Numbered from the stretch's first letter, positions 26,416 to 41,817 are shown. The stretch is DNA of 64,000 nucleotides from an uncultured Acidobacteriaceae bacterium (GCA_964563875.1 CAZLZA010000016.1:2518-66517); one strand, 5' to 3'. Translations and numbers: made by a program. Notes: generated from the letters alone by a model not told the origin.

Positions 26416-27441
26416 ATGAAGGTTATCCCGGTATACGAAGCTGAAGGGGCGGTTTTGTGTCACGACATTACGGAAATTGTGCCCGGAAAATTCAAGGGCC
26501 GGGCCTTCAAAAAAGGGCATGTCGTACGCAAAGAAGACATTCTTAAGTTGCTGAATCTAGGGAAAGAACATGTATATGTGTGGGAGCTCACCGACACCCT
26601 GATGCATGAGGACGAGGCGGCCACAAGGCTCGCCAAAGCGGTCGCCGGCCCAGGGCTCTACTTGAGGGAACCGGCCGAGGGCAAGGTCGAACTCAAGGCG
26701 GCCATCAGCGGTCTTTTGAAGATTGATGTCGATGCCATGGAAGAGATCAACTGCATTGACCAGATCGTGCTGGCCTCCCTGCACTCCAATCAGCGAATCA
26801 CCGAGGGAACCACGGTCGCGGGCAGCCGGGTTGTGCCGCTGGTAATCGAGGCGAACAAGATACTCGGGGTGGAGGACTTCTGCCGGCAGCGTGCCCCGAT
26901 TATCGAAATCAAACCGTTCAAGAGCATGAAAGCAGGACTGGTTACGACCGGCAGCGAAGTCTATCACCACCGCATTAAGGATGAATTTGGGCCGGTAGTA
27001 CAGAAGAAAATTATTGAGATGGGCAGCCAGGTCATCCGGCAGATCTACGTGCCCGACGATATCGCAATGATTCGGCAGGCGATTCGGACGTTGATCCAGG
27101 AAGGCGCCGAGTTGATCCTCACCACCGGGGGCATGTCGGTGGATCCGGACGACGTGACCCCGGCAGCAATTCGAGGAGTTGGAGGGCGGGTGGTTGTGTA
27201 TGGAGCCCCGGTACTTCCTGGGTCCATGTTCATGCTCGCCTATCTTGGCGATGTCCCGATCTTAGGATTGCCGGGATGTGTGATGTATCACAAGACCACG
27301 ATCTTTGATTTGATCCTGCCGAGAATATTGGCCGGCGACGAAGTCACGCGCAAGGATATTGCCCGGTTAGGCCATGGCGGGCTTTGTCTGGAATGTAGCG
27401 CTTGTCAGTTTCCAAACTGTGCGTTTGGGAAGTGTAATTAA
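26416..27441 (+). CDS. MoeA-like molybdopterin-binding protein (MoCF-biosynthesis domain) with a C-terminal cysteine cluster
   Basis: 341 aa. The MoCF domain has LILTTGGMSVDPDDVTPAAI and LPGCVMY. The C-terminus is GGLCLECSACQFPNCAFGKCN (5 Cys in 17 aa). It is shorter than a canonical MoeA (about 400 aa). Confidence 0.8.
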   Translation: MKVIPVYEAEGAVLCHDITEIVPGKFKGRAFKKGHVVRKEDILKLLNLGKEHVYVWELTDTLMHEDEAATRLAKAVAGPGLYLREPAEGKVELKAAISGLLKIDVDAMEEINCIDQIVLASLHSNQRITEGTTVAGSRVVPLVIEANKILGVEDFCRQRAPIIEIKPFKSMKAGLVTTGSEVYHHRIKDEFGPVVQKKIIEMGSQVIRQIYVPDDIAMIRQAIRTLIQEGAELILTTGGMSVDPDDVTPAAIRGVGGRVVVYGAPVLPGSMFMLAYLGDVPILGLPGCVMYHKTTIFDLILPRILAGDEVTRKDIARLGHGGLCLECSACQFPNCAFGKCN

Positions 27442-27521
27442 CCGAATCACTACTAACTGCGACAGCCGAACGCTGTCAATTACGTCCCACTCTTTAATAC
27501 TCAAACAGAGGAGAGGCAGTC

Positions 27522-30275
27522 ATGAAGAGGATGTTATTCAATATCAATGGTGTCGACCGCTGGTTAGTGGCCGACCCCGAAACCACCTTAGCCGACGTGC
27601 TAAGGAATAACCTGATGCTCACCGGATGCAAGGTCTGCTGCAATGAAGGCCACTGCGGCACTTGCACCGTTATCGTCGACGCCAAGCAGGTCAAGGCTTG
27701 CATGGTCAAGATGAAGAAGATTCCGGAACGGGCTGCGATCACCACGATCGAAGGCATCGGCGCTCCCGGGCATCTCCATCCTCTCCAGGTTGCCTGGATG
27801 GTTCATGGCGGCGCGCAGTGCGGCATTTGTACTCCCGGCTTCATCATGTCCGCCGTAGCCATGCTCGATAAGAACAACAATCCGACGCGGGAAGAAGTTC
27901 GTACCTGGTTCGACAAGAACCGCAACCTCTGCCGCTGCACCGGCTACAAGCCCCTCGTCGATGCCGTGATGGATGCCGCCAAGATTATGCGCGGCGAAAT
28001 CAAGGCCGAAGACTTCCTGGCCAAATGCACCCCGGAAGATCCGAAGACCTTGGTCGGCAGCAACTTCATTCGTCCGTCCGCCATCGCGAAGGTCACCGGC
28101 ACCTGGGATTTCGGCGCCGATGTCGCCTTGCGTATGCCCGAAGGCACCCTGCGTCTGGCTCTGACCCAGGCCGAAGTGTCGCACGCCAACATCAAGAGCA
28201 TCGACACCTCGGAAGCCGAGAAGATGCCCGGCGTCGCCAAGGTCATCACCTGGAAGGATGTCAAAGGCAAGAACGCAATTACTGGTCTGATCACCTTCCC
28301 GACCAACAAGGGTGATGGCTGGGATCGCCCGATCCTTTGCCATGAGAAGGTCTTCCAGTACGGCGACGCGATCGCCATCGTAGCTGCGGACACCGAAGAA
28401 CATGCCAAGGCTGCCGCCAAGATGGTCAAGGTGGACCTGGAAGTTCTGCCGGCTTACATGAGCGGTTATGAAGCCCTGGCTCCCGATGCCATGGAAATCC
28501 ATCCCGGCGTGCCGAATGCTTATTATGAGCAGGGCGTCGTGAAGGGCGAAGACACTAAGCCGCTGATGGCGAAGGCAGCTCACACCGTCGAGTTGACAAC
28601 CTACTGCAGCCGTCAACCCCACCTTCACCTGGAGCCGGATTGCGGCGAAGCATACATGGAAGAAGATGGCACCCTGACCATCCTCTCCAAGAGCATCGGC
28701 CTGCATCTGCACCATGCCATGATCTGCCCCGGCATCGGTATTGCTCCTGAAAAGCTGCGCATCATCCAAAACCCCACCGGCGGCACCTTCGGCTACAAGT
28801 TCAGCCCGACGATGGAAGCTCTGTTGGCCGTGGCTTGCATGGCAACGGATGGCAAACCGGTTTCCCTGGTTTATGACCAGTATCAGAACATCACCTACAC
28901 CGGTAAGCGCTCACCGGCCGAAATTAAGGCCAAGTGGGGCTTCGACAAGGACGGCAACATCATCGCGCTGGAATATGACTGGTGGCTCGATCACGGTCCG
29001 TACTCCGAATTCGGTGACTTGGTAACGGTTCGTCAGGCCCAGTTCATGGGCGCTGGCTACAATGTCCCGAACATTCGCGCCAAGGGCTTCACGGTGGCCA
29101 CCAACCACGGTTGGGGTTCGGCATTCCGTGGATACGGCTCTCCGCAGGCATTCCTCAATGGCGAAATTGCCATGGATATGGCTGCCGAAAAGATGGGCAT
29201 CGATCCGCTCGAGTTGCGCTTGAGGAACTGCTACAAGGAGGGTAAGGACCACACCACTCCGACCGGGCAGGTTCCGGAAGTGTTCGTCATGGATAAGCTG
29301 CTCAAGATGATCCAGCCGAAGTGGGAAGAGGCGAAGAAGCGCAAGGCCGCCTACAATGTTCCGGGCAAGGCCTATGGTGTCGGCCTCTCGCTGGGCATCT
29401 ACGGCAGCGGTCTGGACGGTCCGGATGCCTCTGAAGCCGCGGCGGAATTGCTCCCCAACGGTGACGTGAGGATCTACAACGCCTGGCAGGATCACGGCCA
29501 GGGCTCGGATCTCGGCACACTGACCTTTGCTCACGAGGCGCTGCGCCCGATGGGCATCAAACCGGGCCAGATTCAATTGGACATGAACGATACGCGCAAC
29601 CCGAATTCCGGTCCTTCGGGCGGCAGCCGTTCCAACGTGTTCAGCGGCAACGCAATTTATGTATCGTGCCAAATGCTGGTCAACGCCATGAAGAAAGCTG
29701 ACGGAACCTATCGCACTTACGACGAAATGAAGGCGGAAAATATTCCCCTGCGTTACGACGGCAAGTGGTGCGCAGCGGCTCAGACAGCTTGCAGTGAATC
29801 TACCGCCCAGGGCGCCCCGTTCCCGATCTATATGTACGGGACCTTCGTAGTCGAAGTGGTGGTAGACCTGAAGACCTACCATACCAAGTGCGTCGGGATT
29901 ACCTCGGCGATGGACGTGGGCACGATCATCAACAAGGTGACCGTTGATGGTCAGAACTACGGCGGCATTACGCAGGCCATGGGCCTCGGGTTGACCGAGG
30001 ACTTCGATGACCTGAAGGTGCACGTCAATCTGAACAAGTGCGGTATCCCATACCCGAACGATGTTCCCGATCACTTCGAACTTATGTACCTGGAGACCCC
30101 GCGTCCATTGGGTCTTTTGGGACAGGCCGGTACCGGCGAAGTGTCGCTCACCGCTCTTCACCCGGCGTGTTGCAACGCCATTTACAGCGCTGTCGGCGCT
30201 CGTGTGTTCCGGGTTCCCGCGATTCCTGAAAGAATCAAGGCGGCTCTGGAACTAGCGAAAGGTGCCAAGGCCTAA
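27522..30275 (+). CDS. mop: Single-chain aldehyde oxidoreductase of the Desulfovibrio Mop type (2x[2Fe-2S] + molybdopterin-cytosine-dinucleotide domains, no FAD domain)
   Basis: 917 aa. N-terminal plant-type and second [2Fe-2S] motifs (CNEGHCGTCTV; GGAQCGICTPGF; CRCTGYKP). The Mo domains have long blocks I recognise from D. gigas MOP: ITGLITFPTNKGDGWDRPILC, GGTFGYKFSP, HGPYSEFGDL, GWGSAFRGYGSPQ, NSGPSGGSRS. RBS GAGGAGAGG lies upstream. Confidence 0.92.
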   Translation: MKRMLFNINGVDRWLVADPETTLADVLRNNLMLTGCKVCCNEGHCGTCTVIVDAKQVKACMVKMKKIPERAAITTIEGIGAPGHLHPLQVAWMVHGGAQCGICTPGFIMSAVAMLDKNNNPTREEVRTWFDKNRNLCRCTGYKPLVDAVMDAAKIMRGEIKAEDFLAKCTPEDPKTLVGSNFIRPSAIAKVTGTWDFGADVALRMPEGTLRLALTQAEVSHANIKSIDTSEAEKMPGVAKVITWKDVKGKNAITGLITFPTNKGDGWDRPILCHEKVFQYGDAIAIVAADTEEHAKAAAKMVKVDLEVLPAYMSGYEALAPDAMEIHPGVPNAYYEQGVVKGEDTKPLMAKAAHTVELTTYCSRQPHLHLEPDCGEAYMEEDGTLTILSKSIGLHLHHAMICPGIGIAPEKLRIIQNPTGGTFGYKFSPTMEALLAVACMATDGKPVSLVYDQYQNITYTGKRSPAEIKAKWGFDKDGNIIALEYDWWLDHGPYSEFGDLVTVRQAQFMGAGYNVPNIRAKGFTVATNHGWGSAFRGYGSPQAFLNGEIAMDMAAEKMGIDPLELRLRNCYKEGKDHTTPTGQVPEVFVMDKLLKMIQPKWEEAKKRKAAYNVPGKAYGVGLSLGIYGSGLDGPDASEAAAELLPNGDVRIYNAWQDHGQGSDLGTLTFAHEALRPMGIKPGQIQLDMNDTRNPNSGPSGGSRSNVFSGNAIYVSCQMLVNAMKKADGTYRTYDEMKAENIPLRYDGKWCAAAQTACSESTAQGAPFPIYMYGTFVVEVVVDLKTYHTKCVGITSAMDVGTIINKVTVDGQNYGGITQAMGLGLTEDFDDLKVHVNLNKCGIPYPNDVPDHFELMYLETPRPLGLLGQAGTGEVSLTALHPACCNAIYSAVGARVFRVPAIPERIKAALELAKGAKA

Positions 30276-30406
30276 GTTAGGCTGCTAGCGCCATGCCATA
30301 CCGGAGACCAGGGGCGACGATGATCACTTCGCTTGCTCCTGGTTTCCGGGTATTCTTCTGTTGTCTTTTCAAAATGACCCAAGTACCAGAGATGTGAGAG
30401 AGATCG

Positions 30407-32755
30407 ATGGACCGTCAACGAGTACGGGAGCGCGAAAACCAGTGTATTCAGGAGCAACCGCCAACCTGCACGGCGGCCTGCCCGATTCATGTCGACGCGC
30501 GGGGCATGATCGAGGGTATAGGCAAGCAGGATTTTTCGGCGGCATTCGCCATCTTCAACCGCTTTGTTCCATTTCCGCGCATCATCAGCCGGATCTGCGA
30601 CCACCCCTGTGAACCGGAGTGCTTGCGCCACGAACTTGGGGGCGCGATTCGCATCAACGCGCTGGAGCGGGCGTGCGTGGATTATTCCACCAAGAAGCCC
30701 GCGTGCGTCACCTACTCGGCCAAGAAGAGCACGCGAATTGCTGTGGTCGGCGGGGGATTGAGCGGGCTGACAGCCGCCTTCGACCTGATCACCAAGGGAT
30801 ACCAGGTGGTGCTGTTTGAGGCCACCGGCCAGCTCGCGGGACGGCTGCGCGAACTGGGCGAAGAGAGTCTGCCGCAGCAGTTGATTGACGAGGACCTTGC
30901 CGCCCTTCAGAGTTTGCCGGTCGAGGTGCGCCTCAATACCCGGGTCGGCGGCTATGCGCAAACCGGACCCAGCCTGAGCGCGGTGATCGAGGAGTTCGAC
31001 GCCGTGTACCTCGGCGTGGGACCAGACAGTGCTGCCTATCTTGAAAACGAGCTGACGCTTGAGGCGGGCGAGCGCATTGCGATCGAGCCCCTGACCTTTG
31101 CCACCAGCCATCCCAAGGTGTTTGCCGGCGGCAGCCAGCGCTACTCTCGCGATAAAGACAACGACGGAGCCAATGGATTCTCGCCGATTACATCGGTGCA
31201 TGACGGCCGTTATGCGGTGCTGTCGATTGAGCGTTTTCTGCAGAAGGCGTCGCTGTCGGCCAATCGCGATCAGCAGGGCCCATTTAAAACCAAGCTCTTC
31301 ACCACCACCAAGGGAATCGAACCCGCGGCCACCGTCCCCATGACCGACCCATCGCAAGGTTACAGCCGGGAAGAGGCGGTCGGGGAGGCCAAGCGCTGCC
31401 TGCACTGCGAATGTCTGGAGTGCGTGAAGGTCTGCGAATACCTGGCCCACTTCAAGTCGTATCCCAAGCGCTACATCCGTGAGCTCTACAATAACTACTG
31501 CATCGTCCTGGGCATGCACCCGTCCAACCGGCTGATGAACTCCTGCGCCCTGTGCGAACTCTGTACCACCGTGTGTCCGGAGAATCTCAGCATGGGCGGC
31601 TTCGTCCTGGAGACCCGGCAGGCCATGGTCGAGATCGGCAAGATGCCGCCCTCGGTGCACGCGTTTGCCTTGCGCGACCTGGCGTTCAGCACCAGCGAGC
31701 AGTTCACCTTGGCGCGCCATCAGCCCGGACACCAGAGCAGCCGTTACCTGTTTTTTCCCGGCTGCCAGTTAAGCGCTTCCTCGCCCGGACAGGTCTTTGA
31801 TATTTACCAACACCTGCAGCAAAGTATCGCCGGCGGCGTGGGACTAATGCTGGGCTGCTGCGGCGCTCCCGCCGACTGGGCCGGACGCAAGGATTTATTC
31901 GGTGAAACCCTCGCCGCTATTCAAAAGCAATGGGAGGAGCTGGGCTCACCGCAGGTGATTACCGCCTGTTCGAGCTGTTACCGGATGTTCAAGGATCATG
32001 CGCCATCCATGCCGGTCGAATCCTTGTGGACGGTGCTCGACCGGGTTGGTCTGCCAGCCTCGGCCGCCCCGGCCAGTTCCACTCTGGTGGCCATTCACGA
32101 TGCCTGCACCACCCGGCACGAGAACGAGATCCAGGACAGCGTTCGCCACCTGCTCGGCAAACTTGGCGTCGAGATCTCCGAACTGAAAGACAACCGCAGC
32201 CTCACCACCTGCTGCGGCTACGGTGGCCTGATGTCATTGGCCAATCCGGAGGTTGCCGGCAAGGTCGTCCAGCGCCGAATTCACGATAGCGAAGCCGACT
32301 ACCTGACGTATTGCGCGATGTGCCGCGACAATTTTGCGGCCAAGGGCAAACGTACGTTCCATCTGCTGGACCTGATCTGCGGCAGCAGCAACGGGGATGC
32401 GGCCCAGCGCAAAGGCCCCGGATACTCGCAGCGTCACGAAAACCGCGCCCGGTTGAAGAGCCGCGTGCGGCGTGAACTATGGGGAGAAAACGTGGTTGAC
32501 GAAGCTGATCCCATCCAACTCATCCTCTCGCCGGAAGTACTCCAGATCATGGAAAAGAGAATGGTTCTGGCCGAGGACATCCGTAAGGTGATCGCTCACG
32601 CCGAGGCGACGGGCGAAAAGATGGAAGACACCGCCACCGGCCGATTGCTGGCCTCCTACCGCCCGATTGCGGTTACCTACTGGGTAGAGTATTCCGTGCG
32701 GGAGACCGGATTCGAGATTCACAACGTGTACAGCCACCGTATGGAAGTCAGCTAG
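30407..32755 (+). CDS. Multidomain flavo-iron-sulfur oxidoreductase: GltD-like N-terminal FeS, NAD(P)/FAD Rossmann fold, 2x[4Fe-4S] ferredoxin and two CCG (HdrD/GlcF-like) domains
   Basis: CTAACPIHVD...CDHPCEPEC (GltD-N style). IAVVGGGLSGLTAAFDL (GxGxxG). CLHCECLECVKVC and CALCELCTTVCP. FFPGCQL...LGCCGAP and HDACTT...LTTCCGYGG (two CCG motifs). The last ~130 aa match nothing I recognise. Confidence 0.85.
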   Translation: MDRQRVRERENQCIQEQPPTCTAACPIHVDARGMIEGIGKQDFSAAFAIFNRFVPFPRIISRICDHPCEPECLRHELGGAIRINALERACVDYSTKKPACVTYSAKKSTRIAVVGGGLSGLTAAFDLITKGYQVVLFEATGQLAGRLRELGEESLPQQLIDEDLAALQSLPVEVRLNTRVGGYAQTGPSLSAVIEEFDAVYLGVGPDSAAYLENELTLEAGERIAIEPLTFATSHPKVFAGGSQRYSRDKDNDGANGFSPITSVHDGRYAVLSIERFLQKASLSANRDQQGPFKTKLFTTTKGIEPAATVPMTDPSQGYSREEAVGEAKRCLHCECLECVKVCEYLAHFKSYPKRYIRELYNNYCIVLGMHPSNRLMNSCALCELCTTVCPENLSMGGFVLETRQAMVEIGKMPPSVHAFALRDLAFSTSEQFTLARHQPGHQSSRYLFFPGCQLSASSPGQVFDIYQHLQQSIAGGVGLMLGCCGAPADWAGRKDLFGETLAAIQKQWEELGSPQVITACSSCYRMFKDHAPSMPVESLWTVLDRVGLPASAAPASSTLVAIHDACTTRHENEIQDSVRHLLGKLGVEISELKDNRSLTTCCGYGGLMSLANPEVAGKVVQRRIHDSEADYLTYCAMCRDNFAAKGKRTFHLLDLICGSSNGDAAQRKGPGYSQRHENRARLKSRVRRELWGENVVDEADPIQLILSPEVLQIMEKRMVLAEDIRKVIAHAEATGEKMEDTATGRLLASYRPIAVTYWVEYSVRETGFEIHNVYSHRMEVS

Positions 32756-32757
32756 CC

Positions 32758-32970
32758 ATGACCGATAAACAGAAAGCGTCGGATACTCCCAGCCTCGTTT
32801 GCCAAAAGTGCCAGCAGCCAATGACGATGGGCAAGGTGGTCGTTTCCTATCTTGGGGCCAAGTTTCCCATCGAACTCTTGCGCTGCCCAAGCTGCGGATT
32901 AATCTATGTCCCCGAGTCGCTTGCCACCGGCAAAATGGAGCAAGTGGAGCAATCGCTCGAAGACAAATGA
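32758..32970 (+). CDS. 70-aa zinc-ribbon/rubredoxin-like protein with two CxxC pairs
   Basis: CQKCQ ... CPSCG, 32 residues apart. It starts 2 nt after the upstream stop, and its stop overlaps the next ATG (ATGA). Confidence 0.7.
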   Translation: MTDKQKASDTPSLVCQKCQQPMTMGKVVVSYLGAKFPIELLRCPSCGLIYVPESLATGKMEQVEQSLEDK

Positions 32971-33728: not shown

Positions 33729-34176
33729 CGAGTCCTTGCGCATGATGGAGCTGTCGCTGGAAGGCTTTGGCTGCAGCCAGATCACGCTGATTCTAGGACT
33801 GGAAGCCCAGGGAAAAAGTAACCCGGATCTGGTGAGGGCCATATCCGGATTGCATGGTGGACTGGGTTTTTCTGGAAAAATTTGTGGGGCTCTGGCGGGT
33901 GGCTGCTGCCTGCTGGCACTCTATGCCGGCAGAGGTACGCCTGAAGAAACTGAGGACAGCCGCTTGCCGCGGATGATTCAATCTCTTGTTGAATGGTTCG
34001 AAGAGGAATATAAGAGCCGGTATGGAGGCATTGACTGCGCGGTGATTCTGCAGGGTGACGCCCGCAATCAGATTGCGCGGTGCCCCATGATCGTGGCGGA
34101 GACTTTCAACAAGGCGAAGGAAATTCTGGCGGCGAATAACATCGACTTCTACCGGGACCCGCATGTGAGTGCATGA
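33721..34176 (+). CDS. C-GCAxxG-C-C family protein
   Basis: 151 aa. GFGCSQ near the N-terminus, core ICGALAGGCCLL, later CAVIL and ARCPMIV: the Cys pattern that names the family. Overlaps the upstream gene by 8 nt. Confidence 0.75.
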   Translation: MSDESLRMMELSLEGFGCSQITLILGLEAQGKSNPDLVRAISGLHGGLGFSGKICGALAGGCCLLALYAGRGTPEETEDSRLPRMIQSLVEWFEEEYKSRYGGIDCAVILQGDARNQIARCPMIVAETFNKAKEILAANNIDFYRDPHVSA

Positions 34177-35330
34177 AGCAAAATATTACCGCAGTCGTTC
34201 TAGCCGGAGGATACTCATCCCGGATGCAGAGGTTTAAGCCGCTACTGCCCTTGAACGGCTCCCCTGTCATTGCGCATGTCGTAACCAATTTCCGCACGGC
34301 TGGGATCGAAGACATCACGATTGTTGCCGGCCATAACGCCGAAACCCTGAGGCAAGGGGTGGAGAGCCTGGGCGTACGAGTGGCATTCAATGCGCAGTAC
34401 GCCGAGGGAATGTATTCGTCGGTGGTGGCTGGAATTCGCTCGCTTGAGGCGGGAGTGGATGGCTGCCTGCTGATCCCCGCCGACATGCCGCTGGTGCGCA
34501 GCAGTACGGTGAGGCGCGTCTGCAGCGCCTTTCGCCGCACCGGCGCGAGCGTGGTGTATCCCGTCTTCCAGAAACGGCGCGGACATCCTACATTAATCTC
34601 ATCCCGCTTGTTCCCCGCGATCCTCTCCGGCGACGGAGTGGGAGGTCTGCGCGCACGGTTGGCCGAACATGACAGCGAATCGCACGAGGAGCGGGTTCCG
34701 GACGAAGGAATACTCATCGATCTCGACACCCACGCCGATTACGTGAAGGCGCAGGAGCGCGTCGGCCAGCTCGCGATTCCAACTCTGAATGAGTGTGCAG
34801 CCATTCTGGATGAGTTGGCGGTCTTCGAACACATTGTCTGCCACGGCCGAAGGGTGTCCGAGGTCGCCGAAAAGCTTACCGTCCAGTTGAACGATGCCGG
34901 CTTGCACCTCAACCTTGCCCTAGTGAAAGCCGCAGCGATTTTGCATGACGTCGCCAAGGGCAAACCGAATCACGCACGGGCAGGAGCGCAAATTCTGGAA
35001 GACATTGGGTTCCCCGAGGTGGCACGGGTAGTCGGCTTACACATGGATTGTGACTTCCAAAAGGGCGCGACGTTGGACGAGGCGGCAATCGTCTACTTGG
35101 CCGATAAATTCGTCCAAGGCGAGCGCATCGTATCGCTGGCCGTGCGTTTTCAACGGAAGTTCGCCGCCGCCAGGGGTAACGGAACCCTGCCATTCGTCCA
35201 AACACGATGGGAGACGGCCAAGCGCATGGTCGCGGCTGTCGAGCACATTCTCGGCACCGATGTACGGCGGATTATTTCGCCGGAAAGCGATGTTCCGGGC
35301 ACGATGGTGGGTAATGTTCCCACACCCTGA
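34173..35330 (+). CDS. MobA/MocA-like nucleotidyltransferase fused to an HD phosphohydrolase domain
   Basis: N-terminal AVVLAGGYSSRM...KPLLPL and ADMPLV (MobA/MocA signature). C-terminal half has AAILHDVAKG ... GLHMDCD (HD domain). 4-nt ATGA overlap with the upstream gene. Confidence 0.8.
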   Translation: MKQNITAVVLAGGYSSRMQRFKPLLPLNGSPVIAHVVTNFRTAGIEDITIVAGHNAETLRQGVESLGVRVAFNAQYAEGMYSSVVAGIRSLEAGVDGCLLIPADMPLVRSSTVRRVCSAFRRTGASVVYPVFQKRRGHPTLISSRLFPAILSGDGVGGLRARLAEHDSESHEERVPDEGILIDLDTHADYVKAQERVGQLAIPTLNECAAILDELAVFEHIVCHGRRVSEVAEKLTVQLNDAGLHLNLALVKAAAILHDVAKGKPNHARAGAQILEDIGFPEVARVVGLHMDCDFQKGATLDEAAIVYLADKFVQGERIVSLAVRFQRKFAAARGNGTLPFVQTRWETAKRMVAAVEHILGTDVRRIISPESDVPGTMVGNVPTP

Positions 35331-36732
35331 AGTGCTTGCTTCGCAGCGTACGGAAAGCGTGTGCCCGGTATGCCTGCAGCGGATTCCGGCAGAGCGCATC
35401 GCGGATGGCGATGACGTGTATCTGGACAAAAACTGCCCGGAGCACGGCTCCTTCCGCACCATCATTTGGCGCGGTCCCCCGTCGTATGAATCGTGGACTG
35501 GTCCGGCGAAACTGCCATCTCCGCCGGAGCGGCCCTCCACATCCGTGAGCCAAGGGTGTCCATTCGATTGTGGCTTATGTCCGGAGCACCGTCAGCATAC
35601 CTGCTGCGTGGTGCTCGAAGTTACGAAGCGCTGCAATCTGAACTGCCCTGTCTGTTTTGCCGAGTCTCGCGCGCAAGCCGCGGATCCGGACATGGCCACG
35701 ATTGAGAGCTGGTTCAAACGACTGCTTTCGACCGGCGGACCATACAACATCCAGCTTTCTGGCGGCGAACCCACGCTGCGCGATGACCTGCCGGAAATCA
35801 TTACGCTCGGACGGTCGTTGGGTTTCAGCTTTTTTCAACTGAATACGAATGGCCTGCGGCTTGCCTCCGATATCGCCTATGTGCGGCGATTGAAAGCGGC
35901 TGGACTCGGCTGCGTGTTCCTGCAATTTGACGGCACCAACGACGCAATCTACCGCACGATTCGCGGGGCAGCCTTGCTTGCCGACAAGACGAAAGCCATC
36001 TCGAACTGCGCCGCCGAACGCCTTGGCGTGGTGCTGGTGCCGACCCTTGTGCCCGGGGTAAATACCGGAGATATCGGCGGAATCATCGACTACGCTCTGG
36101 CACGGAGGCCGGCGGTCCGCGGAGTGCATTTTCAGCCCATCAGCTATTTCGGCAGATACCCCAAACCGCCCTGCGATGGCGACCGCATCACCATCCCCGA
36201 AGTCATGCACCAGATCGAGCGGCAAACCGAAGGACGAATCAGAGCCGCGGAGTTTCGTCCCCCGGCCGCCGAGAATGCCCATTGCTCTTTTCATGGCAAT
36301 TTCGTCGTCACCTCCGATGGAACGCTCAAACCGGCGGCCAACCTGAGCGACTCCGGATGCTGTGGACCGGCCGCGCCGGAAACCAAGCCGCTGGTGCAAC
36401 TGGGCTGCTGCGAATCCGAAGCCGCCGGGGCAGCCTCCCGGAAGGCGCAACAGTATGTAGCTCTCCGTTGGACTCTCCCTGGAGCCGACGCCGCGGGCAG
36501 TGCGGCAGAGTGCCCGGAGACCATGCGGGTGGACAGTCTGGATGCGTTCCTTGCGCAGTCCCGGCAGCAATCATTCTGCGTCTCCGGCATGGCCTTTCAG
36601 GATGCCTGGAACATTGATTTGGAGCGCTTGCGGGACTGCTTTATTCACGTTGTCGGCGCAGATGAAAGAATCGTGCCTTTTTGCGCCTATAACCTGACTG
36701 ACGCGCTCGGCAATGCACTCTACCGGAAGTAA
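35314..36732 (+). CDS. Radical SAM enzyme with an N-terminal Zn-ribbon and a Cys-rich C-terminal region
   Basis: CPVCLQRI...NCPEHG (Zn-ribbon). CNLNCPVCF (CxxxCxxC). GGEPTLR. C-terminal DSGCCGPAAPETKPLVQLGCCESE and FCAYN. In-frame ATGs at 35290 and 35314; either overlaps the upstream stop (35330). Confidence 0.8.
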   Translation: MFPHPEVLASQRTESVCPVCLQRIPAERIADGDDVYLDKNCPEHGSFRTIIWRGPPSYESWTGPAKLPSPPERPSTSVSQGCPFDCGLCPEHRQHTCCVVLEVTKRCNLNCPVCFAESRAQAADPDMATIESWFKRLLSTGGPYNIQLSGGEPTLRDDLPEIITLGRSLGFSFFQLNTNGLRLASDIAYVRRLKAAGLGCVFLQFDGTNDAIYRTIRGAALLADKTKAISNCAAERLGVVLVPTLVPGVNTGDIGGIIDYALARRPAVRGVHFQPISYFGRYPKPPCDGDRITIPEVMHQIERQTEGRIRAAEFRPPAAENAHCSFHGNFVVTSDGTLKPAANLSDSGCCGPAAPETKPLVQLGCCESEAAGAASRKAQQYVALRWTLPGADAAGSAAECPETMRVDSLDAFLAQSRQQSFCVSGMAFQDAWNIDLERLRDCFIHVVGADERIVPFCAYNLTDALGNALYRK

Positions 36733-36734
36733 TC

Positions 36735-38129
36735 ATGGGCGAAAAGGCAATCAAGAGAACTCCGATGGAATCGGCAATCGCCAGCAAGATTGGCTCAGCC
36801 GTGGCGAATATCGGTCGCGAGCTCGCAGCATACCAGTTGCTAAAACTGCGTGAAACCATTGCTTACGCGTCTCTGCACAGCCCGTTTTATCGCCACAAGC
36901 TGAGCCCGCAAACTCACACCGAGCTGACATCTTTGTCCGATCTGGGGCGCTTTCCGTTGACTACTCCTGAGGAGTTGAGAGATGAGGGTCTGCGCTTTCT
37001 CTGCGTCTCCCAGGACGAAATCAGCCGGGTGGTTACCCTGAGCAGCTCTGGTACCACAGGCACTCCGAAGCGCGTCTTCTTCACCGCCGATGACCAGGAT
37101 CTGGCGGTCGATTTCTTTCAGTGCGGCACCGCGAATCTGGCGGAGAAAGGTGATCGCGTTCTGGTTCTGCTGCCGGGGGAAACACCGGGCAGTGTCGGCG
37201 ATCTGCTAGCCGCGGGGATCTGCCGTTTCGGAGCCGTGCCGGTCCGCCACGGAATGATTCGCAGCCTGGCCGAGACCCTCCGCCAAGTGACCGCCGAAGG
37301 CGTCAGCACGGTCATTGGCATTCCTGTGCAGGTTTTGGCGTTGGCCCGGTACGCGGAAACTAAAGGAATCGCTCTGCGCATCAAGAGCGTGGCGCTGGTC
37401 TCTGACCATGTGCCCTCCAGCATTGTTGCCGAACTCAAGCGGTTGTGGCAGTGTGCGGTCTTCGAGCACTACGGTGCCACCGAGATGGGCCTGGGCGGAG
37501 GCGTGGATTGCGAAGCTCATGCCGGCTACCATTTGCGTGAAGCGGACTTGTACTTTGAGATCGTCGATCCACGAAGCGGCGAAGTTGTCAGCGAAAACCA
37601 GCCCGGCGAAATTGTATTCACGACCCTGACCCGCCGCGGAATGCCGCTGATCCGTTATCGGACGGGCGACCTCTCCAGAATTTTTGCCGCGCGATGCGCG
37701 TGTGGTTCGGTGCTGCGCCGGTTGGATCGTATTAAATCGCGAGGAACCGCTATCGTTGTATCGCCTGGCCATCCGGATGGTCTTCTCAACATGGCCATGC
37801 TCGACGAAGCGTTGTTCAAGGTGCCGGGACTGATCGATTTCAAAGCCTCGATCCGTCGCCGTGGAGACCGCACCACGTTGACCATTGCAGCCCAGTCGGT
37901 CGATGACCCTGCCCACCCCGCGGAGCGAACGATTTCTGAGGCATTGGATAACGTTCCTGCGATATATTTGGCACAAAGCTCTGGGAATCTTCTCATCAAT
38001 ATCGATACTCGATACGGGGTTGACGTGTTAGAACCCCGGGCAGAAAAAAGAATAATCGAAGAACAGGACCGTAATGGAGAACAGGGTTGTCTATCTCATC
38101 CGGCACGGCAAAATTCAGCAAGAGGATGA
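36735..38129 (+). CDS. PaaK / coenzyme-F390-synthetase-like adenylate-forming ligase
   Basis: LSSSGTTGTPKRVFFT (AMP-binding P-loop), YGATEMG, and YRTGD followed by a LDRIKSRG-type hinge. Size and layout resemble phenylacetate-CoA ligase rather than long acyl-CoA synthetases. Confidence 0.8.
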   Translation: MGEKAIKRTPMESAIASKIGSAVANIGRELAAYQLLKLRETIAYASLHSPFYRHKLSPQTHTELTSLSDLGRFPLTTPEELRDEGLRFLCVSQDEISRVVTLSSSGTTGTPKRVFFTADDQDLAVDFFQCGTANLAEKGDRVLVLLPGETPGSVGDLLAAGICRFGAVPVRHGMIRSLAETLRQVTAEGVSTVIGIPVQVLALARYAETKGIALRIKSVALVSDHVPSSIVAELKRLWQCAVFEHYGATEMGLGGGVDCEAHAGYHLREADLYFEIVDPRSGEVVSENQPGEIVFTTLTRRGMPLIRYRTGDLSRIFAARCACGSVLRRLDRIKSRGTAIVVSPGHPDGLLNMAMLDEALFKVPGLIDFKASIRRRGDRTTLTIAAQSVDDPAHPAERTISEALDNVPAIYLAQSSGNLLINIDTRYGVDVLEPRAEKRIIEEQDRNGEQGCLSHPARQNSARG

Positions 38130-38691
38130 TCAGCGCCGCTACATCGGTCAAATCGACCTGCCGCTGGCCGAGGAAGGAATCAAACAGGCGCAGACTTTGC
38201 AAAAGAGATTTGAGCGCTCCGACATTGGCGCGATCTTTTGCAGCGACCTGTCGCGTTCCATTAAAACCGCAAGGATCATTGCCGGCTCACGAAGAGTACC
38301 GGTGGTGATTCGCCAGGATTTACGCGAAGTCAGCATGGGCGAATGGGAAGGCTGCGCGTTCGGCGATATCGCGCGGCGCTTTCCGGAGGAGTTCAAAGCC
38401 CGCGGCAGCGATATCGTTTCCTATCGCGTGCCTGGAGGAGAAAGTTTTGCCGATTGCCACCAGCGGATGGTTGCAGCCCTGGAGGACATCCTGGCATCTT
38501 CCTCCGGCAATCTCGTAATCGTCGGCCATGCCGGAGGGATTCGGTTGCTGTTGTGCCATATGCTCGGCATGCCGATCACGAACCTGTTCAGAATCGCGCA
38601 GGATTACGGATGCTTGAACGTGATTCAATGCGGCAGTACGGGCTACCAGGTCAAACTGATGAACGGTAGTGGCCGCAGCAATCGCCGTTAG
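38074..38691 (+). CDS. Histidine phosphatase (phosphoglycerate mutase/CobC-like) family protein
   Basis: VVYLIRHGK (RHG catalytic His), SDLSRS, GESF and VGHAGGIR (second His). Overlaps the ligase ORF by 56 nt. Confidence 0.8.
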   Translation: MENRVVYLIRHGKIQQEDDQRRYIGQIDLPLAEEGIKQAQTLQKRFERSDIGAIFCSDLSRSIKTARIIAGSRRVPVVIRQDLREVSMGEWEGCAFGDIARRFPEEFKARGSDIVSYRVPGGESFADCHQRMVAALEDILASSSGNLVIVGHAGGIRLLLCHMLGMPITNLFRIAQDYGCLNVIQCGSTGYQVKLMNGSGRSNRR

Positions 38692-38719
38692 AGAAAGCGA
38701 AGATTCATAAGGAAAACCA

Positions 38720-39772
38720 ATGGTTGAGGATAACGAAAGCATTTCGGCGATCCGCGAATATTATGGAATAGTTCTTCAGGGCAAGCGCGATCTGAAAACC
38801 AACGCGTGCTGCTGCGCCGAATCGATTCCAGAATTGCACCGCGAAATATTGGCGGAGATCGACGGCGAAGTGCTGGAGAAATTTTACGGCTGCGGTTCTC
38901 CCATTCCACCGGCGCTCGCCGGATGCACCGTGCTCGACCTGGGCTGCGGCGCTGGACGAGATGTCTACCTAGTCTCACGCCTGGTAGGGCCGGACGGCTT
39001 TGTGATCGGCGTGGATATGACCGACGAGCAACTTGCGGTAGGCCGGCGGCACCAGACTGCACAGGCCAAACGCTTCGGATTCCCGCGCTCCAACGTGGAT
39101 TTCCGCCAAGGCTATATCGAAGATCTGAGGACGGCGGGCATCGCCGATCATTCCATTGACGTTGTGATCTCCAACTGTGTCATCAACCTGTCGCCGCAAA
39201 AAGAGCGGGTGTTCGCCGAGATTTTCCGGGTGCTGAAACCTGGTGGCGAACTGTACTTCTCCGATGTCTTTGCCGGACGCCGCCTTCCAATTGAATTGCA
39301 GCACGATCCGCTCCTGCTCGGAGAGTGCATGGGCGGCGCAATGTACATCGAGGATTTCCGGCGGCTCCTGCGAGACATCGGATGCCCTGACTACCGAGTG
39401 GTTTCCACGACGCGGATCGCGATTGGGAACCCCGAGGTCGAGGCGCAAGTGGGCATGGTCGATTTCTATTCCATGACGATCCGCGCCTTCCAACTCGGCT
39501 CGCTCGAAGACATCTGCGAAGATTACGGTCAGGTTGCTTATTACCTCGGCACCATTCCCGATCATCCGTTCCGCTTTGCGCTCGATGACCATCACACGTT
39601 CATCACCGGCAAGCCGATGCTGGTTTGCGGCAATACTGCTGCCATGGTGAGTGACACACGGCTCTCCAGGCATTTCAAAGTAACGGGCGATAGGTCGGTG
39701 CACTACGGCCCGTTCGACTGCAAACCGGCAACCGGCACTCAGGCCGCCAGCGCCTGTGGCTCCTGCTGCTAA
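38720..39772 (+). CDS. ArsM-like (arsenite methyltransferase family) SAM-dependent methyltransferase
   Basis: Family-typical blocks: YYG...KTNACCC, FYGCGSP, VLDLGCGAGRD, ISNCVINLSP, LKPGGELYFSDV, LLLGECMGGAMY. The C-terminus ends ASACGSCC. Confidence 0.8.
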   Translation: MVEDNESISAIREYYGIVLQGKRDLKTNACCCAESIPELHREILAEIDGEVLEKFYGCGSPIPPALAGCTVLDLGCGAGRDVYLVSRLVGPDGFVIGVDMTDEQLAVGRRHQTAQAKRFGFPRSNVDFRQGYIEDLRTAGIADHSIDVVISNCVINLSPQKERVFAEIFRVLKPGGELYFSDVFAGRRLPIELQHDPLLLGECMGGAMYIEDFRRLLRDIGCPDYRVVSTTRIAIGNPEVEAQVGMVDFYSMTIRAFQLGSLEDICEDYGQVAYYLGTIPDHPFRFALDDHHTFITGKPMLVCGNTAAMVSDTRLSRHFKVTGDRSVHYGPFDCKPATGTQAASACGSCC

Positions 39773-41801: not shown

Positions 41802-41817
41802 GGATAATAACCGCTGC

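What the first reader, a model, noticed from the sequence alone, without database searches (positions are those of the whole stretch)
26416..39772. Eleven-gene coupled operon: Desulfovibrio-type Mop aldehyde oxidoreductase plus nine accessory genes with no assigned joint function
**Seen in the sequence.**
- All eleven genes are on the + strand.
- The gaps from the gene at 30407 onward are 2, -4, -8, -4, -17 (or -41), 2, -56 and 28 nt. This is tight translational coupling.
- The order after Mop is:
  1. GltD/FAD/2x4Fe4S/2xCCG oxidoreductase
  2. 70-aa 2xCxxC protein
  3. class I methyltransferase
  4. C-GCAxxG-C-C protein
  5. MocA-like NTP transferase fused to HD
  6. Zn-ribbon radical SAM
  7. 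PaaK/F390-synthetase-like ligase
  8. histidine phosphatase
  9. ArsM-like methyltransferase

**Established knowledge, from memory and to be verified.**
- The same gene set sits next to the aldehyde oxidoreductase gene of Desulfovibrio vulgaris Hildenborough (locus tags around DVU1551-DVU1559).
- Several of these proteins are named only after those locus tags, as 'DVU_155x family' proteins. That means no biochemical role is assigned to them.

**Inference.** A nucleotidyltransferase, phosphohydrolase, phosphatase, adenylating enzyme, radical SAM and two methyltransferases is the kind of toolkit used to build or tailor a nucleotide-linked cofactor. Comparable cases are the cobamide nucleotide loop, F420/F390 and MCD. 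The cluster may therefore make or insert a modified pyranopterin/MCD cofactor, or another prosthetic group, for Mop. The HdrD-like protein would then be the dedicated redox partner.

**Alternative.** It could be a catabolic route (aldehyde to acid to acyl-CoA via the ligase). That would leave the radical SAM, phosphatase and NTP-transferase unexplained.
Basis: partly seen in the sequence, partly recalled or inferred. Interest (0 to 1): 0.88.

Follow-up and report, generated by a model that had tools for sequence, protein, structure and literature searches.

The report
Conserved Mop aldehyde-oxidoreductase gene system
This is a widely conserved gene set around the classic molybdenum aldehyde oxidoreductase (Mop); database curators already recognise it, but what its radical-SAM, ligase and methyltransferase genes do is still unknown and can now be tested directly.

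Summary
All eleven + strand ORFs, their gaps and their domain assignments are as described. Nine of them score above the curated cut-off of a dedicated NCBIfam model (pterin_aldehy, diclust_near_Sec, DVU_1557, DVU_1556, DVU_1555, DVU_1551, TrsS, DVU_1553, CobC-type phosphatase). The neighbourhood is therefore already catalogued, but it has no assigned function.

- **Linkage runs both ways.** Mop lies beside 49 of 53 TrsS-centred genome loci. TrsS lies beside 37 of 38 Mop-centred metagenome loci.
- **Gene 11 is a true ArsM.** It is found only in one close relative, so it is a passenger.
- **The set splits into modules.**
  - A catalytic and redox core: Mop, Dic, DVU_1557 and the C-GCAxxG-C-C protein.
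  - A Moco layer: MoCF-domain protein, XdhC, NifS, MocA-like NTP transferase fused to HD, and the phosphatase.
  - A trio of probable maturation enzymes: TrsS, the ligase and the methyltransferase.
- **A modified pterin in Mop is unlikely.** D. gigas carries the same genes, yet its 1.28 Å MOP structure shows ordinary MCD.
- **The core is not specific to aldehydes.** In a few loci it follows a DMSO-reductase-family enzyme instead of Mop.
- **New leads.** DVU_1557 is repeatedly fused to the C-terminus of Dic-type proteins and ends in a near-invariant ΦE(D/E)K tail. TrsS keeps all four metal sites of the lipid synthase GDGT-MAS and occurs fused to the NTP transferase-HD protein.

The mechanism remains inferred.

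The parts
23773..24966 (-). NifS-type cysteine desulfurase, divergent from the operon
   Evidence: TIGR03402 scores 475 bits, below its 530 cut-off. A NifS homologue recurs in the cluster in 15 of 53 loci, often directly upstream of TrsS.
25008..26153 (-). XdhC-family aldehyde oxidoreductase maturation factor. Its N-terminal XdhC_CoxI domain is tandemly duplicated.
   Evidence: NF045664 scores 352.3 against a cut-off of 350. The two internal copies share 78 of 105 residues.
26416..27441 (+). Gene 1: MoCF_biosynth-domain (molybdopterin-binding) protein with a conserved C-terminal Cys motif
   Evidence: PF00994 scores 90 bits. It lies upstream of Mop in 18 of 53 loci, and also in D. gigas. The motif GGlC..C..C.yP.C.FGK is conserved.
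27522..30275 (+). Gene 2: Mop, the molybdopterin-dependent aldehyde oxidoreductase (two [2Fe-2S] domains plus Moco domains, no FAD domain)
   Evidence: NF045668 scores 1480 bits against a cut-off of 1100. It is 57% identical to D. gigas MOP, P0147.
30301..30350 (+). Stable hairpin followed by a U-rich tract after the Mop stop codon; a possible attenuator or terminator
   Evidence: The MFE structure holds a roughly 20-bp stem; z = -2.77 against shuffles. The consensus scan also flags 30338-30350.
30407..32755 (+). Gene 3: Dic. It combines an NfnB/GltD-like Fe-S and Rossmann module, a 2x[4Fe-4S] domain, two CCG (HdrD-like) domains and a C-terminal domain of about 90 aa ('DicC').
   Evidence: NF045663 scores 1032 bits against a cut-off of 530. 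Pfam finds Fer4_20, Pyr_redox_2, Fer4_17 and CCG. The best PDB matches are NfnA/StnC-type modules.
32758..32970 (+). Gene 4: DVU_1557 / DUF7479, a 70-aa zinc-ribbon protein (2x CxxC) with a C-terminal LEDK tail
   Evidence: NF045645 scores 97.9 bits against a cut-off of 60. LEDK is the C-terminus in 73 of 75 homologues, and 111 of 150 representatives end in [LMIV]E[DNG]K (about 130 with E or S allowed in the third position). It is fused to the C-terminus of Dic-type proteins.
32967..33728 (+). Gene 5: DVU_1556-family class I methyltransferase (ArsM/UbiE-like); facultative member of the set
   Evidence: NF045667 scores 242 bits against a cut-off of 155. It is present in 50 of 53 loci. The 'EC.LS' cysteine is conserved.
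33721..34176 (+). Gene 6: DVU_1555-family C-GCAxxG-C-C protein (four conserved Cys)
   Evidence: NF045669 scores 170 bits against a cut-off of 103. It is present in 52 of 53 loci. Similarity to the split-Soret cytochrome c is weak.
34173..35330 (+). Gene 7: DVU_1551-family MocA-like NTP transferase fused to an HD phosphohydrolase
   Evidence: NF045665 scores 418 bits against a cut-off of 315. MocA (TIGR03310) scores 137.5, below its 186 cut-off. In-frame fusions to TrsS (P0020) and to the phosphatase (L083 and L049) exist.
35314..36732 (+). Gene 8: TrsS, a radical SAM protein (Cys form) and full-length homologue of GDGT-MAS/Tes
   Evidence: NF045646 scores 664 bits against a cut-off of 490. 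The match to 7TOL has E = 3.8e-89 over residues 11-461. The motifs CX2CX20CX2H, C82/C86/C89 and CX3CX2C, and the C-terminal Cys, are conserved.
36735..38129 (+). Gene 9: DVU_1553-family PaaK-like adenylate-forming ligase
   Evidence: NF045666 scores 439 bits against a cut-off of 300. PaaK structures match at E = 1e-32. It is present in 52 of 53 loci.
38074..38691 (+). Gene 10: histidine phosphatase (CobC-like)
   Evidence: TIGR03162 scores 173.4 against a cut-off of 162.9, and PF00300 scores 189 bits. It travels with XdhC and NTP transferase-HD in 38 of 53 loci.
38720..39772 (+). Gene 11: arsenite S-adenosylmethionine methyltransferase (ArsM); a lineage-specific passenger, not part of the conserved system
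   Evidence: The match to ArsM structure 5EVJ has E = 9e-112. It is absent from L001-L080 and present only in L086. Its stop codon is TAA.
40656..44886 (.). Molybdenum context: modC (40656-41801, -), modB (41818-42492, -), modA-type binding protein (42675-43442, +) and MoeA (43648-44886, +)

Best explanation
The region encodes the conserved Mop system, which has three layers.

1. **Catalytic and redox core.** Mop (Mo-MCD plus two [2Fe-2S]) oxidises aldehydes. It hands electrons to a dedicated partner made of Dic (flavin/Fe-S/HdrD-like CCG protein), the small zinc-ribbon protein DVU_1557 and the four-Cys C-GCAxxG-C-C protein. DVU_1557 packs against the C-terminal domain of Dic.
2. **Moco layer.** The MoCF-domain protein, XdhC, NifS, the MocA-like cytidylyltransferase-HD and the CobC-like phosphatase make, possibly sulfurate, and insert the MCD cofactor.
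3. **Maturation trio.** TrsS (a GDGT-MAS-like radical SAM enzyme), the PaaK-like ligase and the ArsM/UbiE-like methyltransferase act on the partner module or on a cofactor for it. The best candidate target is the near-invariant, always C-terminal ΦE(D/E)K tail of DVU_1557. They do not produce an altered pterin inside Mop.

The ArsM gene at the end is a passenger.

**Shown here:** gene content, conservation, the fusions, and the module structure. **Inferred:** electron flow from Mop to Dic, and what the trio acts on.
For: - **Family membership.** Each gene reaches the curated cut-off of a neighbourhood-specific NCBIfam model.
- **Forward linkage.** Of 53 TrsS-centred loci with full flanks, 46 carry Mop and 3 more are cut at the edge. 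Dic is in 50, DVU_1557 in 52, CGA in 52 and the ligase in 52.
- **Reverse linkage.** Of 38 Mop-centred loci with at least 9.5 kb downstream, 38 carry Dic and DVU_1557, and 37 carry CGA and TrsS.
- **Separable modules.** XdhC, NTP transferase-HD and the phosphatase travel together (38 of 53). They are missing within 10 kb in 10 loci that keep the core.
- **Not tied to aldehydes.** L028, L051 and L070 put the core behind a DMSO-reductase-family enzyme. There, a small fusion of DicC and DVU_1557 replaces Dic.
- **DVU_1557 belongs to the reductase.** DUF7479 is fused to the extreme C-terminus of full Dic-type and CCG-type proteins.
- **Packing.** The AlphaFold2 model of a DicC::DVU_1557 fusion is confident (pLDDT 85, pTM 0.80). 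Only the C-terminal tail helix is of low confidence.
- **D. gigas.** It has the same cluster. Its MOP holds plain MCD and two Fe/S centres, lacks a flavin domain, and its assumed partner, flavodoxin, is described only as putative (PMC10223205).
- **Independent notice.** In C. ljungdahlii the four-gene set Mop-Dic-4Cys-CGA occurs twice in tandem and is induced on syngas/H2 (PMC5640608).
- **Known Moco route.** XdhC with a NifS-type desulfurase is the established Moco sulfuration and insertion route for this enzyme family (PMC13653126).
Against: - No experiment links any accessory protein to Mop activity.
- D. gigas MOP is purified alone and works in vitro with flavodoxin.
- The in-frame NTP transferase-HD::TrsS fusion ties TrsS to the nucleotidyltransferase. 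TrsS could therefore act on a pterin or nucleotide intermediate rather than on DVU_1557.
- Dic shows only one clear Rossmann fold, so a link to NAD(P) is uncertain.
- The tail hypothesis rests on conservation alone.
- A few loci (L042, L049, L044, L067) hold parts of the core with no molybdenum enzyme within reach.
Confidence: 0.5

Rival explanations
1. One reading: the accessory genes build or tailor a modified pyranopterin/MCD, or another stable prosthetic group, that resides in Mop.
For: - The toolkit resembles those for nucleotide-linked cofactors.
- MocA-like NTP transferase, HD, phosphatase and TrsS are joined by gene fusions.
- Co-occurrence with Mop is near-obligate.
Against: - D. gigas has the cluster. 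Its native MOP at 1.28 Å shows ordinary MCD and two [2Fe-2S] centres, with excellent definition of the pterin rings (PMC10223205).
- The core also accompanies DMSO-reductase-family enzymes, which use a different pterin dinucleotide.
- 10 of 53 loci keep the core without NTP transferase-HD or the phosphatase nearby.
Confidence: 0.08
2. The TrsS-ligase-methyltransferase trio, together with NifS, installs or regenerates a labile feature of the molybdenum centre that is lost on purification. Candidates are a sulfido or selenido-type ligand, or the redox state of the dithiolene. The trio would act on Mo-MPT-level cofactor or on the assembled enzyme, in both xanthine-oxidase-type and DMSO-reductase-type enzymes.
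For: - The core associates with two molybdenum enzyme families that share the Mo-dithiolene core and, in many members, a terminal sulfido ligand (PMC13653126).
- NifS sits directly before TrsS in several lineages.
- GDGT-MAS chemistry passes through a bond between carbon and a cluster sulfur (PMC9433317).
- D. gigas AOR is anomalous. It has no sulfido ligand and its inactive samples are activated by a dithiolene-based process.
- Some TrsS family members are selenoproteins.
Against: - Known sulfuration needs only XdhC/FdhD plus a desulfurase.
- A ligase and a methyltransferase have no obvious role in such a process.
- DVU_1557 is fused to the electron-transfer protein, not to the molybdenum subunit.
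- No Sec codon was found in TrsS at loci L001-L080, the only set scanned for in-frame stops.
Confidence: 0.15
3. The dependence runs the other way. The molybdenum enzyme and Dic serve as a low-potential electron source for a TrsS-centred pathway. That pathway makes a small organosulfur, organoselenium or organoarsenic molecule or a thiol cofactor.
For: - The molybdenum enzyme is interchangeable: Mop in most loci, a DMSO-reductase-type enzyme with AsrAB-like or XdhB-like subunits in others.
- The methyltransferase keeps one ArsM-like substrate cysteine (≥90% of homologues); a second is only partly conserved (60–90%).
- A few loci lack any adjacent molybdenum enzyme.
Against: - No transporter or further biosynthetic genes are conserved with the set.
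- DVU_1557 and CGA are duplicated together with Mop and Dic in C. ljungdahlii, as structural partners would be.
- The linkage to Mop is far tighter than expected for a generic electron donor.
Confidence: 0.15
4. A catabolic route: aldehyde to acid by Mop, then acyl-CoA formation by the PaaK-like ligase.
For: The ligase's closest solved relatives are phenylacetate-CoA ligases. Mop oxidises aromatic aldehydes.
Against: - The ligase and its neighbours persist where Mop is replaced by a DMSO-reductase-family enzyme.
- No downstream catabolic genes are conserved.
- The radical SAM enzyme, DVU_1557 and CGA are left unexplained.
Confidence: 0.05
5. TrsS is a bacterial membrane-spanning-lipid (brGDGT-type) synthase that merely sits next to Mop.
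For: - TrsS is homologous to GDGT-MAS over its full length.
- Bacterial Tes homologues, including some from Acidobacteria, were proposed as brGDGT enzymes (PMC8941075).
Against: - Synteny with Mop holds across at least nine phyla.
- TrsS occurs fused in frame to the NTP transferase-HD protein.
- It scores 355.6 bits against a 450-bit Tes cut-off.
- The region that forms the lipid pocket in GDGT-MAS is replaced by a short Cys-rich segment.
Confidence: 0.03

Closest known systems
The NCBIfam-defined DVU_1551-DVU_1559 / TrsS neighbourhood (models NF045645, NF045646, NF045663-NF045669). TrsS is cited as a selenoprotein family from Haft & Tolstoy 2025, mSystems, a paper that could not be read here.
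   Same: All nine family models are matched above their curated cut-offs. The core order Mop-Dic-DVU_1557-methyltransferase-CGA-...-TrsS-ligase is the same.
   Different: - TrsS is the Cys form here.
- NTP transferase-HD sits directly before TrsS.
- XdhC and NifS are divergent and upstream.
- An ArsM gene is appended.
- No function is attached to these families beyond their names.
The Desulfovibrio (Megalodesulfovibrio) gigas MOP/AOR locus and enzyme
   Same: Mop is 57% identical. The locus has the same neighbours: MoCF, Dic, DUF7479, methyltransferase, CGA, TrsS, ligase, XdhC and phosphatase.
   Different: D. gigas has a nitroreductase gene between mop and dic and a HEAT-repeat gene at the end. 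It has no NTP transferase-HD gene within the stretch read.
XdhC / NifS4 / MocA maturation of xanthine-oxidase-family enzymes (R. capsulatus XDH, E. coli MocA)
   Same: An XdhC-family chaperone, a NifS-type desulfurase and a MocA-like cytidylyltransferase lie next to the enzyme.
   Different: - The transferase is fused to an HD domain and coupled to a histidine phosphatase.
- It scores below the MocA equivalog cut-off.
- D. gigas AOR reportedly needs no sulfido ligand.
GDGT-MAS / Tes (MJ0619, PDB 7TOL)
   Same: TrsS aligns over the full length at E = 3.8e-89. The rubredoxin-like site, the N-terminal and C-terminal auxiliary cluster ligands and the radical SAM motif are all conserved.
   Different: - TrsS scores below the Tes family cut-off.
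- The central lipid-pocket region is replaced.
- The genomic context is bacterial and molybdenum-enzyme-linked.
- The substrate is unknown.
The E. coli ygf/yqe island (XdhD, YgfK, YgfM, MocA/YgfJ, YqeB), linked to selenium-dependent molybdenum hydroxylases
   Same: Both have a fused Fe-S/Mo subunit, a GltD-like Fe-S flavoprotein partner, a MocA-type transferase and an XdhC-like factor. The matches to TIGR03313, TIGR03315 and TIGR03310 are weak.
   Different: All scores are far below the cut-offs. The E. coli island has no TrsS, ligase, DVU_1557 or CGA. This resemblance comes from memory plus the weak HMM hits only.
Carrier-protein prosthetic-group systems (lipoyl domain with LplA/LipA/E3; citrate lyase ACP with CitG/CitX/CitC). 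This is a functional analogy only.
   Same: Both combine a small protein with an invariant attachment-type motif, an adenylate-forming ligase, a radical SAM enzyme of the sulfur-handling type, a nucleotidyl-transferase toolkit and a disulfide-type reductase.
   Different: There is no sequence relationship, and the attachment has not been demonstrated. The analogy is an inference.

Membership tests
Mop-type molybdopterin-dependent aldehyde oxidoreductase (NF045668) | Whole-protein score at or above the curated cut-off | tested here: met
   1480.5 bits against a cut-off of 1100
Mop-type molybdopterin-dependent aldehyde oxidoreductase (NF045668) | A single chain with two [2Fe-2S] domains, a hammerhead domain and two Moco-binding domains, and no FAD domain | tested here: met
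   Pfam finds Fer2, Fer2_2, Ald_Xan_dh_C, MoCoBD_1 and MoCoBD_2
Mop-type molybdopterin-dependent aldehyde oxidoreductase (NF045668) | MCD cofactor and aldehyde-oxidising activity | not testable with these tools
   Needs biochemistry
TrsS radical SAM (seleno)protein (NF045646) | Score at or above the cut-off, with the radical SAM CX3CX2C motif | tested here: met
   663.9 bits against a cut-off of 490. C107/C111/C114 are conserved.
TrsS radical SAM (seleno)protein (NF045646) | A selenocysteine codon | tested here: not met
   The ORF is uninterrupted. No TGA aligns to Cys in TrsS in loci L001-L080. The family name allows Cys forms.
Tes / GDGT-MAS tetraether lipid synthase (NF045702) | Score at or above the curated cut-off | tested here: not met
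   355.6 bits against a cut-off of 450
Tes / GDGT-MAS tetraether lipid synthase (NF045702) | Four metallocofactor sites (rubredoxin-like Fe and three [4Fe-4S]) | tested here: met
   The motifs are conserved across 81 sequences, compared with PMC9433317
Tes / GDGT-MAS tetraether lipid synthase (NF045702) | A hydrophobic lipid-binding pocket and a lipid substrate | tested here: inconclusive
   The central region aligns poorly and is a short Cys-rich segment. No coordinates were available for inspection.
MocA molybdenum cofactor cytidylyltransferase (TIGR03310) | Score at or above the equivalog cut-off | tested here: not met
   137.5 bits against a cut-off of 186.45. The protein belongs to the NF045665 subfamily instead.
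CobC alpha-ribazole phosphatase (TIGR03162) | Score at or above the cut-off | tested here: met
   173.4 bits against a cut-off of 162.9
CobC alpha-ribazole phosphatase (TIGR03162) | A cobamide-biosynthesis gene context | tested here: not met
   Its neighbours are molybdenum-enzyme genes. Elsewhere it is fused to the NTP transferase-HD protein.
ArsM arsenite methyltransferase (gene 11) | Close homology to solved ArsM enzymes, including the Cys motifs | tested here: met
   E = 9.4e-112 to 5EVJ. The N-terminal CC(C) and the SNCVINL and LLGEC motifs align.
ArsM arsenite methyltransferase (gene 11) | The NCBIfam curated cut-off | tested here: not met
   NF008823 scores 189 bits against a cut-off of 263
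Single operon of eleven genes | Same strand, with short or overlapping junctions | tested here: met
Single operon of eleven genes | One transcript | not testable with these tools
   The hairpin and U-tract after Mop suggest attenuation. RNA data are needed.
Conserved DVU_1551-1559-type neighbourhood | Co-occurrence of the accessory genes with Mop in unrelated genomes | tested here: met
   49 of 53 in the forward direction and 37 of 38 in reverse

The most novel reading that the evidence does not exclude
DVU_1557 is a carrier domain. A thiol-bearing prosthetic arm is built on its invariant, always-terminal ΦE(D/E)K lysine tail.

- The PaaK-like ligase attaches a carboxylic acid to the tail.
- TrsS functionalises an unactivated carbon of that acid through the carbon-to-cluster-sulfur chemistry known from GDGT-MAS.
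- The ArsM-like methyltransferase optionally caps the product.
- The HdrD-like CCG domains of Dic then cycle the arm's disulfide.

This would be a new protein-bound redox cofactor, comparable to lipoyl-lysine or coenzyme B. It would couple molybdenum enzymes to disulfide chemistry.
Probability: 0.1. Interest if true: 0.9.

Novelty: new member of a known kind. Interest (0 to 1): 0.6.

Why it matters
[quoted passage not shown] Its physiological partner, and the oddities of its molybdenum centre, have stayed open for decades.

The gene context points to answers that can be tested:
- It names a specific candidate partner: Dic with DVU_1557 and CGA.
- It shows a radical-SAM, ligase and methyltransferase module, of unknown chemistry, that almost never separates from the enzyme.
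- This holds in hundreds of anaerobes, including acetogens, sulfate reducers and peat Acidobacteria.

Solving the module could reveal a new cofactor or a new maturation step for molybdenum enzymes. It would also correct two misleading annotations of the TrsS family, 'pterin dimethyltransferase' and 'brGDGT synthase'.

Tried and rejected
- **RNA elements.** An Rfam scan of the whole window gave no hit, so no Moco riboswitch or SECIS-type element was found.
- **Promoters and terminators.** The consensus scan found fewer sites than in shuffled sequence. Only the hairpin after Mop stood out once folded.
- **Selenocysteine positions.** I looked for in-frame TGA codons aligned to Cys in the 80 genome loci, hoping to locate catalytic residues. 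None was found in TrsS, CGA, DVU_1557 or Dic.
- **Fold of the DicC::DVU_1557 model.** A Foldseek search against the PDB gave no significant match. The best hit had E = 0.18, a vague RelE-like topology.
- **Literature.** Haft & Tolstoy 2025 (PMC12013261) is not held in the library. Searches for the DVU locus tags and for DUF7479 found no functional study.
- **Rejected idea: gene 11 as a read-through selenoprotein.** Its stop codon is TAA.
- **Rejected idea: the pterin-methylase annotation of TrsS homologues.** JGI uses it, but the founding assignment for MJ0619 was overturned (PMC9433317).

Full report
**1. The observation**

From 30407 onward the gaps are 2, -4, -8, -4, -17 or -41, 2, -56 and 28 nt. 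The first two junctions are longer, at 80 and 131 nt.

Profile searches confirm each domain call. They also show that nearly every protein scores above the curated cut-off of a dedicated NCBIfam model:

| Gene | Model | Bits / cut-off |
|---|---|---|
| Mop | pterin_aldehy NF045668 | 1480 / 1100 |
| Dic | diclust_near_Sec NF045663 | 1032 / 530 |
| DVU_1557 | DVU_1557_fam NF045645 | 98 / 60 |
| Methyltransferase | MTase_DVU1556 NF045667 | 242 / 155 |
| C-GCAxxG-C-C protein | DVU1555_fam_CGA NF045669 | 170 / 103 |
| NTP transferase-HD | NTPtran_DVU1551 NF045665 | 418 / 315 |
| Radical SAM | rSAM_Se_TrsS NF045646 | 664 / 490 |
| Ligase | DVU1553_fam_AMP NF045666 | 439 / 300 |
| Phosphatase | CobC-type TIGR03162 | 173 / 163 |

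The divergent upstream gene matches XdhC_rel_AOR NF045664 (352 / 350). DVU_1559 is the Aor of D. vulgaris (PMC10920352).

The run of consecutive model numbers shows that NCBI curators modelled this neighbourhood as a unit. TrsS is listed as a selenoprotein family taken from Haft & Tolstoy 2025 (PMC13188914). That paper was not available to me.

**2. Surroundings**

The operon sits in a molybdenum island:
- Upstream and divergent: a NifS-type desulfurase and XdhC.
- Downstream: modC, modB, a ModA-type binding protein and MoeA.

No Rfam family is present in the window.

A roughly 20-bp hairpin followed by a U-rich tract lies directly after the Mop stop codon (30301-30350; z = -2.8). Gene 1 and Mop may therefore be expressed above the downstream genes.

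The closest relatives of these proteins come from a peat-bog Acidobacteriaceae MAG (L001, 61-87% identity) and a metagenome contig (L086, 84-94% identity). The host is probably not a Desulfovibrio.

**3. Conservation in both directions**

*Forward test.* TrsS has more than 8000 database relatives and at least 591 loci among GTDB species representatives. The best 80 span Acidobacteriota, Nitrospirota, Negativicutes, Desulfotomaculia, Clostridia, Desulfobacterota, Myxococcota, Chloroflexota and Spirochaetota. I mapped the window's proteins onto them with tblastn. Among the 53 loci with full flanks:
- Mop is present in 46, and in 3 more it is cut at the locus edge.
- Dic is in 50, DVU_1557 in 52, the methyltransferase in 50, CGA in 52 and the ligase in 52.
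- XdhC, NTP transferase-HD and the phosphatase are each in 38.
- The MoCF-domain protein is in 18 and NifS in 15.
- The ArsM-like gene 11 is in none.

*Reverse test.* Of 80 Mop-centred metagenome loci:
- All 38 with at least 9.5 kb downstream carry Dic and DVU_1557. 37 carry CGA and TrsS.
- 55 of the 57 with at least 2.6 kb downstream carry Dic.

The first refutation criterion, 'accessory genes frequently without Mop', is therefore not met.

Gene 11 is a genuine ArsM (E = 9e-112 to structure 5EVJ). It is shared only with L086, so it is a lineage-specific passenger.

**4. Anatomy: separable modules**

XdhC, NTP transferase-HD and the phosphatase move as one block. The block lies before, after or inside the core, and it is absent within 10 kb in 10 of the 53 loci. 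NTP transferase-HD and the phosphatase occur as one polypeptide in L083 and L049. Together with the MoCF-domain protein and NifS, this block is most simply the layer that makes and inserts the MCD form of Moco. XdhC plus a NifS-type desulfurase is the known route for this enzyme family (PMC13653126).

The invariant core is Dic (or only its C-terminal domain), DVU_1557, CGA, TrsS and the ligase. The methyltransferase is usually present as well.

**5. The exceptions are informative**

In L028 (Thermincola), L051 and L070 there is no Mop. The core instead follows a cytoplasmic DMSO-reductase-family molybdopterin enzyme. That enzyme comes with AsrA/AsrB-like subunits, or with XdhB-like and Fer2 electron-transfer parts.

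In these loci Dic is reduced to a small fusion protein of its last 90 or so residues with DVU_1557. L081 shows a split form: Fer4, then CCG, then DicC::DVU_1557.

The core is therefore tied to pterin-molybdenum enzymes and their electron-transfer partners, not to aldehydes. This argues against the catabolic alternative.

**6. DVU_1557**

A search of 1.8 billion representative proteins shows DUF7479 either alone or fused to the extreme C-terminus of full Dic-type, Fer4-CCG or CCG proteins.

Its C-terminus is nearly invariant. LEDK ends 73 of 75 homologues from the loci. Of the 150 representatives, 111 end in [LMIV]E[DNG]K, and about 130 end in ΦExK once E or S is allowed in the third position. 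That includes nearly every long fusion; three unrelated or frameshifted hits (P0318, P0364, P0412) do not.

An AlphaFold2 model of a DicC::DVU_1557 fusion is confident (pLDDT 85, pTM 0.80). DicC and the zinc ribbon form one body. Only the terminal helix carrying the tail is of low confidence. The fold has no significant match in the PDB.

A tail that is conserved and always free is the signature of a functional end, either a docking motif or an attachment arm.

**7. TrsS**

TrsS is a full-length homologue of GDGT-MAS/MJ0619 (7TOL, E = 3.8e-89). It keeps all four metal sites of that enzyme: the rubredoxin-like CX2CX20CX2H site, the N-terminal auxiliary cluster Cys, the radical SAM motif and the C-terminal Cys (PMC9433317). 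However, it is below the Tes cut-off, and a short Cys-rich segment replaces the region that forms the lipid pocket.

One database protein (P0020) is an in-frame fusion of NTP transferase-HD, a Ser/Gly/Glu linker and TrsS. This ties TrsS functionally to the nucleotidyltransferase.

JGI labels TrsS homologues '7,8-dihydro-6-hydroxymethylpterin dimethyltransferase'. That label descends from an assignment for MJ0619 that has since been overturned.

**8. The D. gigas test**

I recalled the MOP sequence from memory. The database returned it at 100% identity as the Megalodesulfovibrio gigas enzyme.

Its locus in CP006585 reads: MoCF, MOP, nitroreductase, Dic, DUF7479, methyltransferase, CGA, TrsS, ligase, XdhC, phosphatase, HEAT.

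Native D. gigas MOP was solved at 1.28 Å with excellent definition of the pterin rings. It contains MCD and two Fe/S centres, has no flavin domain and needs no sulfido ligand. Flavodoxin is only its 'putative' physiological partner (PMC10223205).

A stably modified pterin, or an extra prosthetic group inside Mop, is therefore very unlikely. A labile feature lost on purification is not excluded.

**9. Interpretation**

*Best supported, at about 0.5.* The locus is a three-layer system:
- an enzyme with a dedicated redox partner (Mop, Dic, DVU_1557, CGA);
- a Moco layer;
- a maturation trio (TrsS, ligase, methyltransferase) acting on the partner module, most plausibly on the DVU_1557 tail.

C. 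ljungdahlii supports the split between structural partners and maturation enzymes. There the four-gene set Mop-Dic-4Cys-CGA occurs twice in tandem and is induced on syngas and H2 (PMC5640608). That TrsS and the ligase occur only once there is my inference from the locus-tag numbering.

*Rivals.*
- A labile molybdenum ligand or a repair function: 0.15.
- The molybdenum enzyme as electron donor to a small-molecule pathway: 0.15.
- The modified-pterin model: 0.08.
- Catabolism: 0.05.
- Lipid synthesis: 0.03.

**10. Novelty and score**

The neighbourhood is known and this locus is a new member of it. The function is unknown.

- the two-way co-occurrence numbers;
- the presence of the cluster in D. 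gigas;
- the DMSO-reductase-linked variant;
- the Dic::DVU_1557 fusions and the invariant tail;
- the NTP transferase-HD::TrsS and NTP transferase-HD-phosphatase fusions.

I score interest at 0.6. The puzzle is real and testable and attaches to a classic enzyme. But the neighbourhood is already catalogued, and nothing about its mechanism is shown.

Noticed in passing
window 38720-39772: A bona fide arsenite methyltransferase (ArsM) is appended 28 nt after the phosphatase gene. It is conserved only in the close relative L086. Arsenite is a classic inhibitor of xanthine-oxidase-family enzymes, so the placement could be protective, or it could be coincidental.
   Followed up: partly
window 30301-30350: A roughly 20-bp hairpin followed by a U-rich tract lies directly after the Mop stop codon (z = -2.8). 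It may be an attenuator that raises Mop expression above that of the downstream genes.
   Followed up: partly
window 25008-26153 (- strand): The XdhC-family protein carries a tandem duplication of its N-terminal XdhC_CoxI domain. The two copies share 78 of 105 residues.
   Followed up: partly
window 39817-40167 and 40217-40639: Two + strand ORFs (116 and 140 aa) have no Pfam or NCBIfam match. The first is 90% identical in L086, so it is probably a real gene of unknown function.
   Followed up: no
window 21572-22618 (-) and 22726-23337 (+): An aldo/keto reductase and a hemerythrin-domain protein lie just upstream of the NifS gene. The reductase could act on the same aldehyde pool as Mop.
   Followed up: no
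TrsS homologues P0002, P0003, P0029, P0052 and others; loci L001, L005, L006, L015-L022: TrsS homologues are annotated as a pterin dimethyltransferase, a label now overturned. They would also pass the BLAST thresholds used to call 'bacterial Tes homologues' as brGDGT-synthase candidates, including in Acidobacteria (PMC8941075). Their Mop-linked context argues for a different role.
   Followed up: partly
L082 281-4471: A second, divergent Mop paralogue is followed by a DsrC/TusE-like protein and a NifS-type aminotransferase, just upstream of the standard Mop cluster. This hints at a sulfur relay to the molybdenum enzyme.
   Followed up: no
L042 1824-4170: In an uncultured gut Desulfovibrio, the cluster Dic-DVU_1557-CGA-NifS-TrsS-ligase has no Mop within 5 kb. 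It lies beside the glycine reductase genes grdB and grdE, on the opposite strand.
   Followed up: partly
L084 12800-13414 and 21244-21861: The D. gigas cluster holds a nitroreductase-family gene between mop and dic, and a HEAT-repeat gene after the phosphatase. Neither is present in the window.
   Followed up: no
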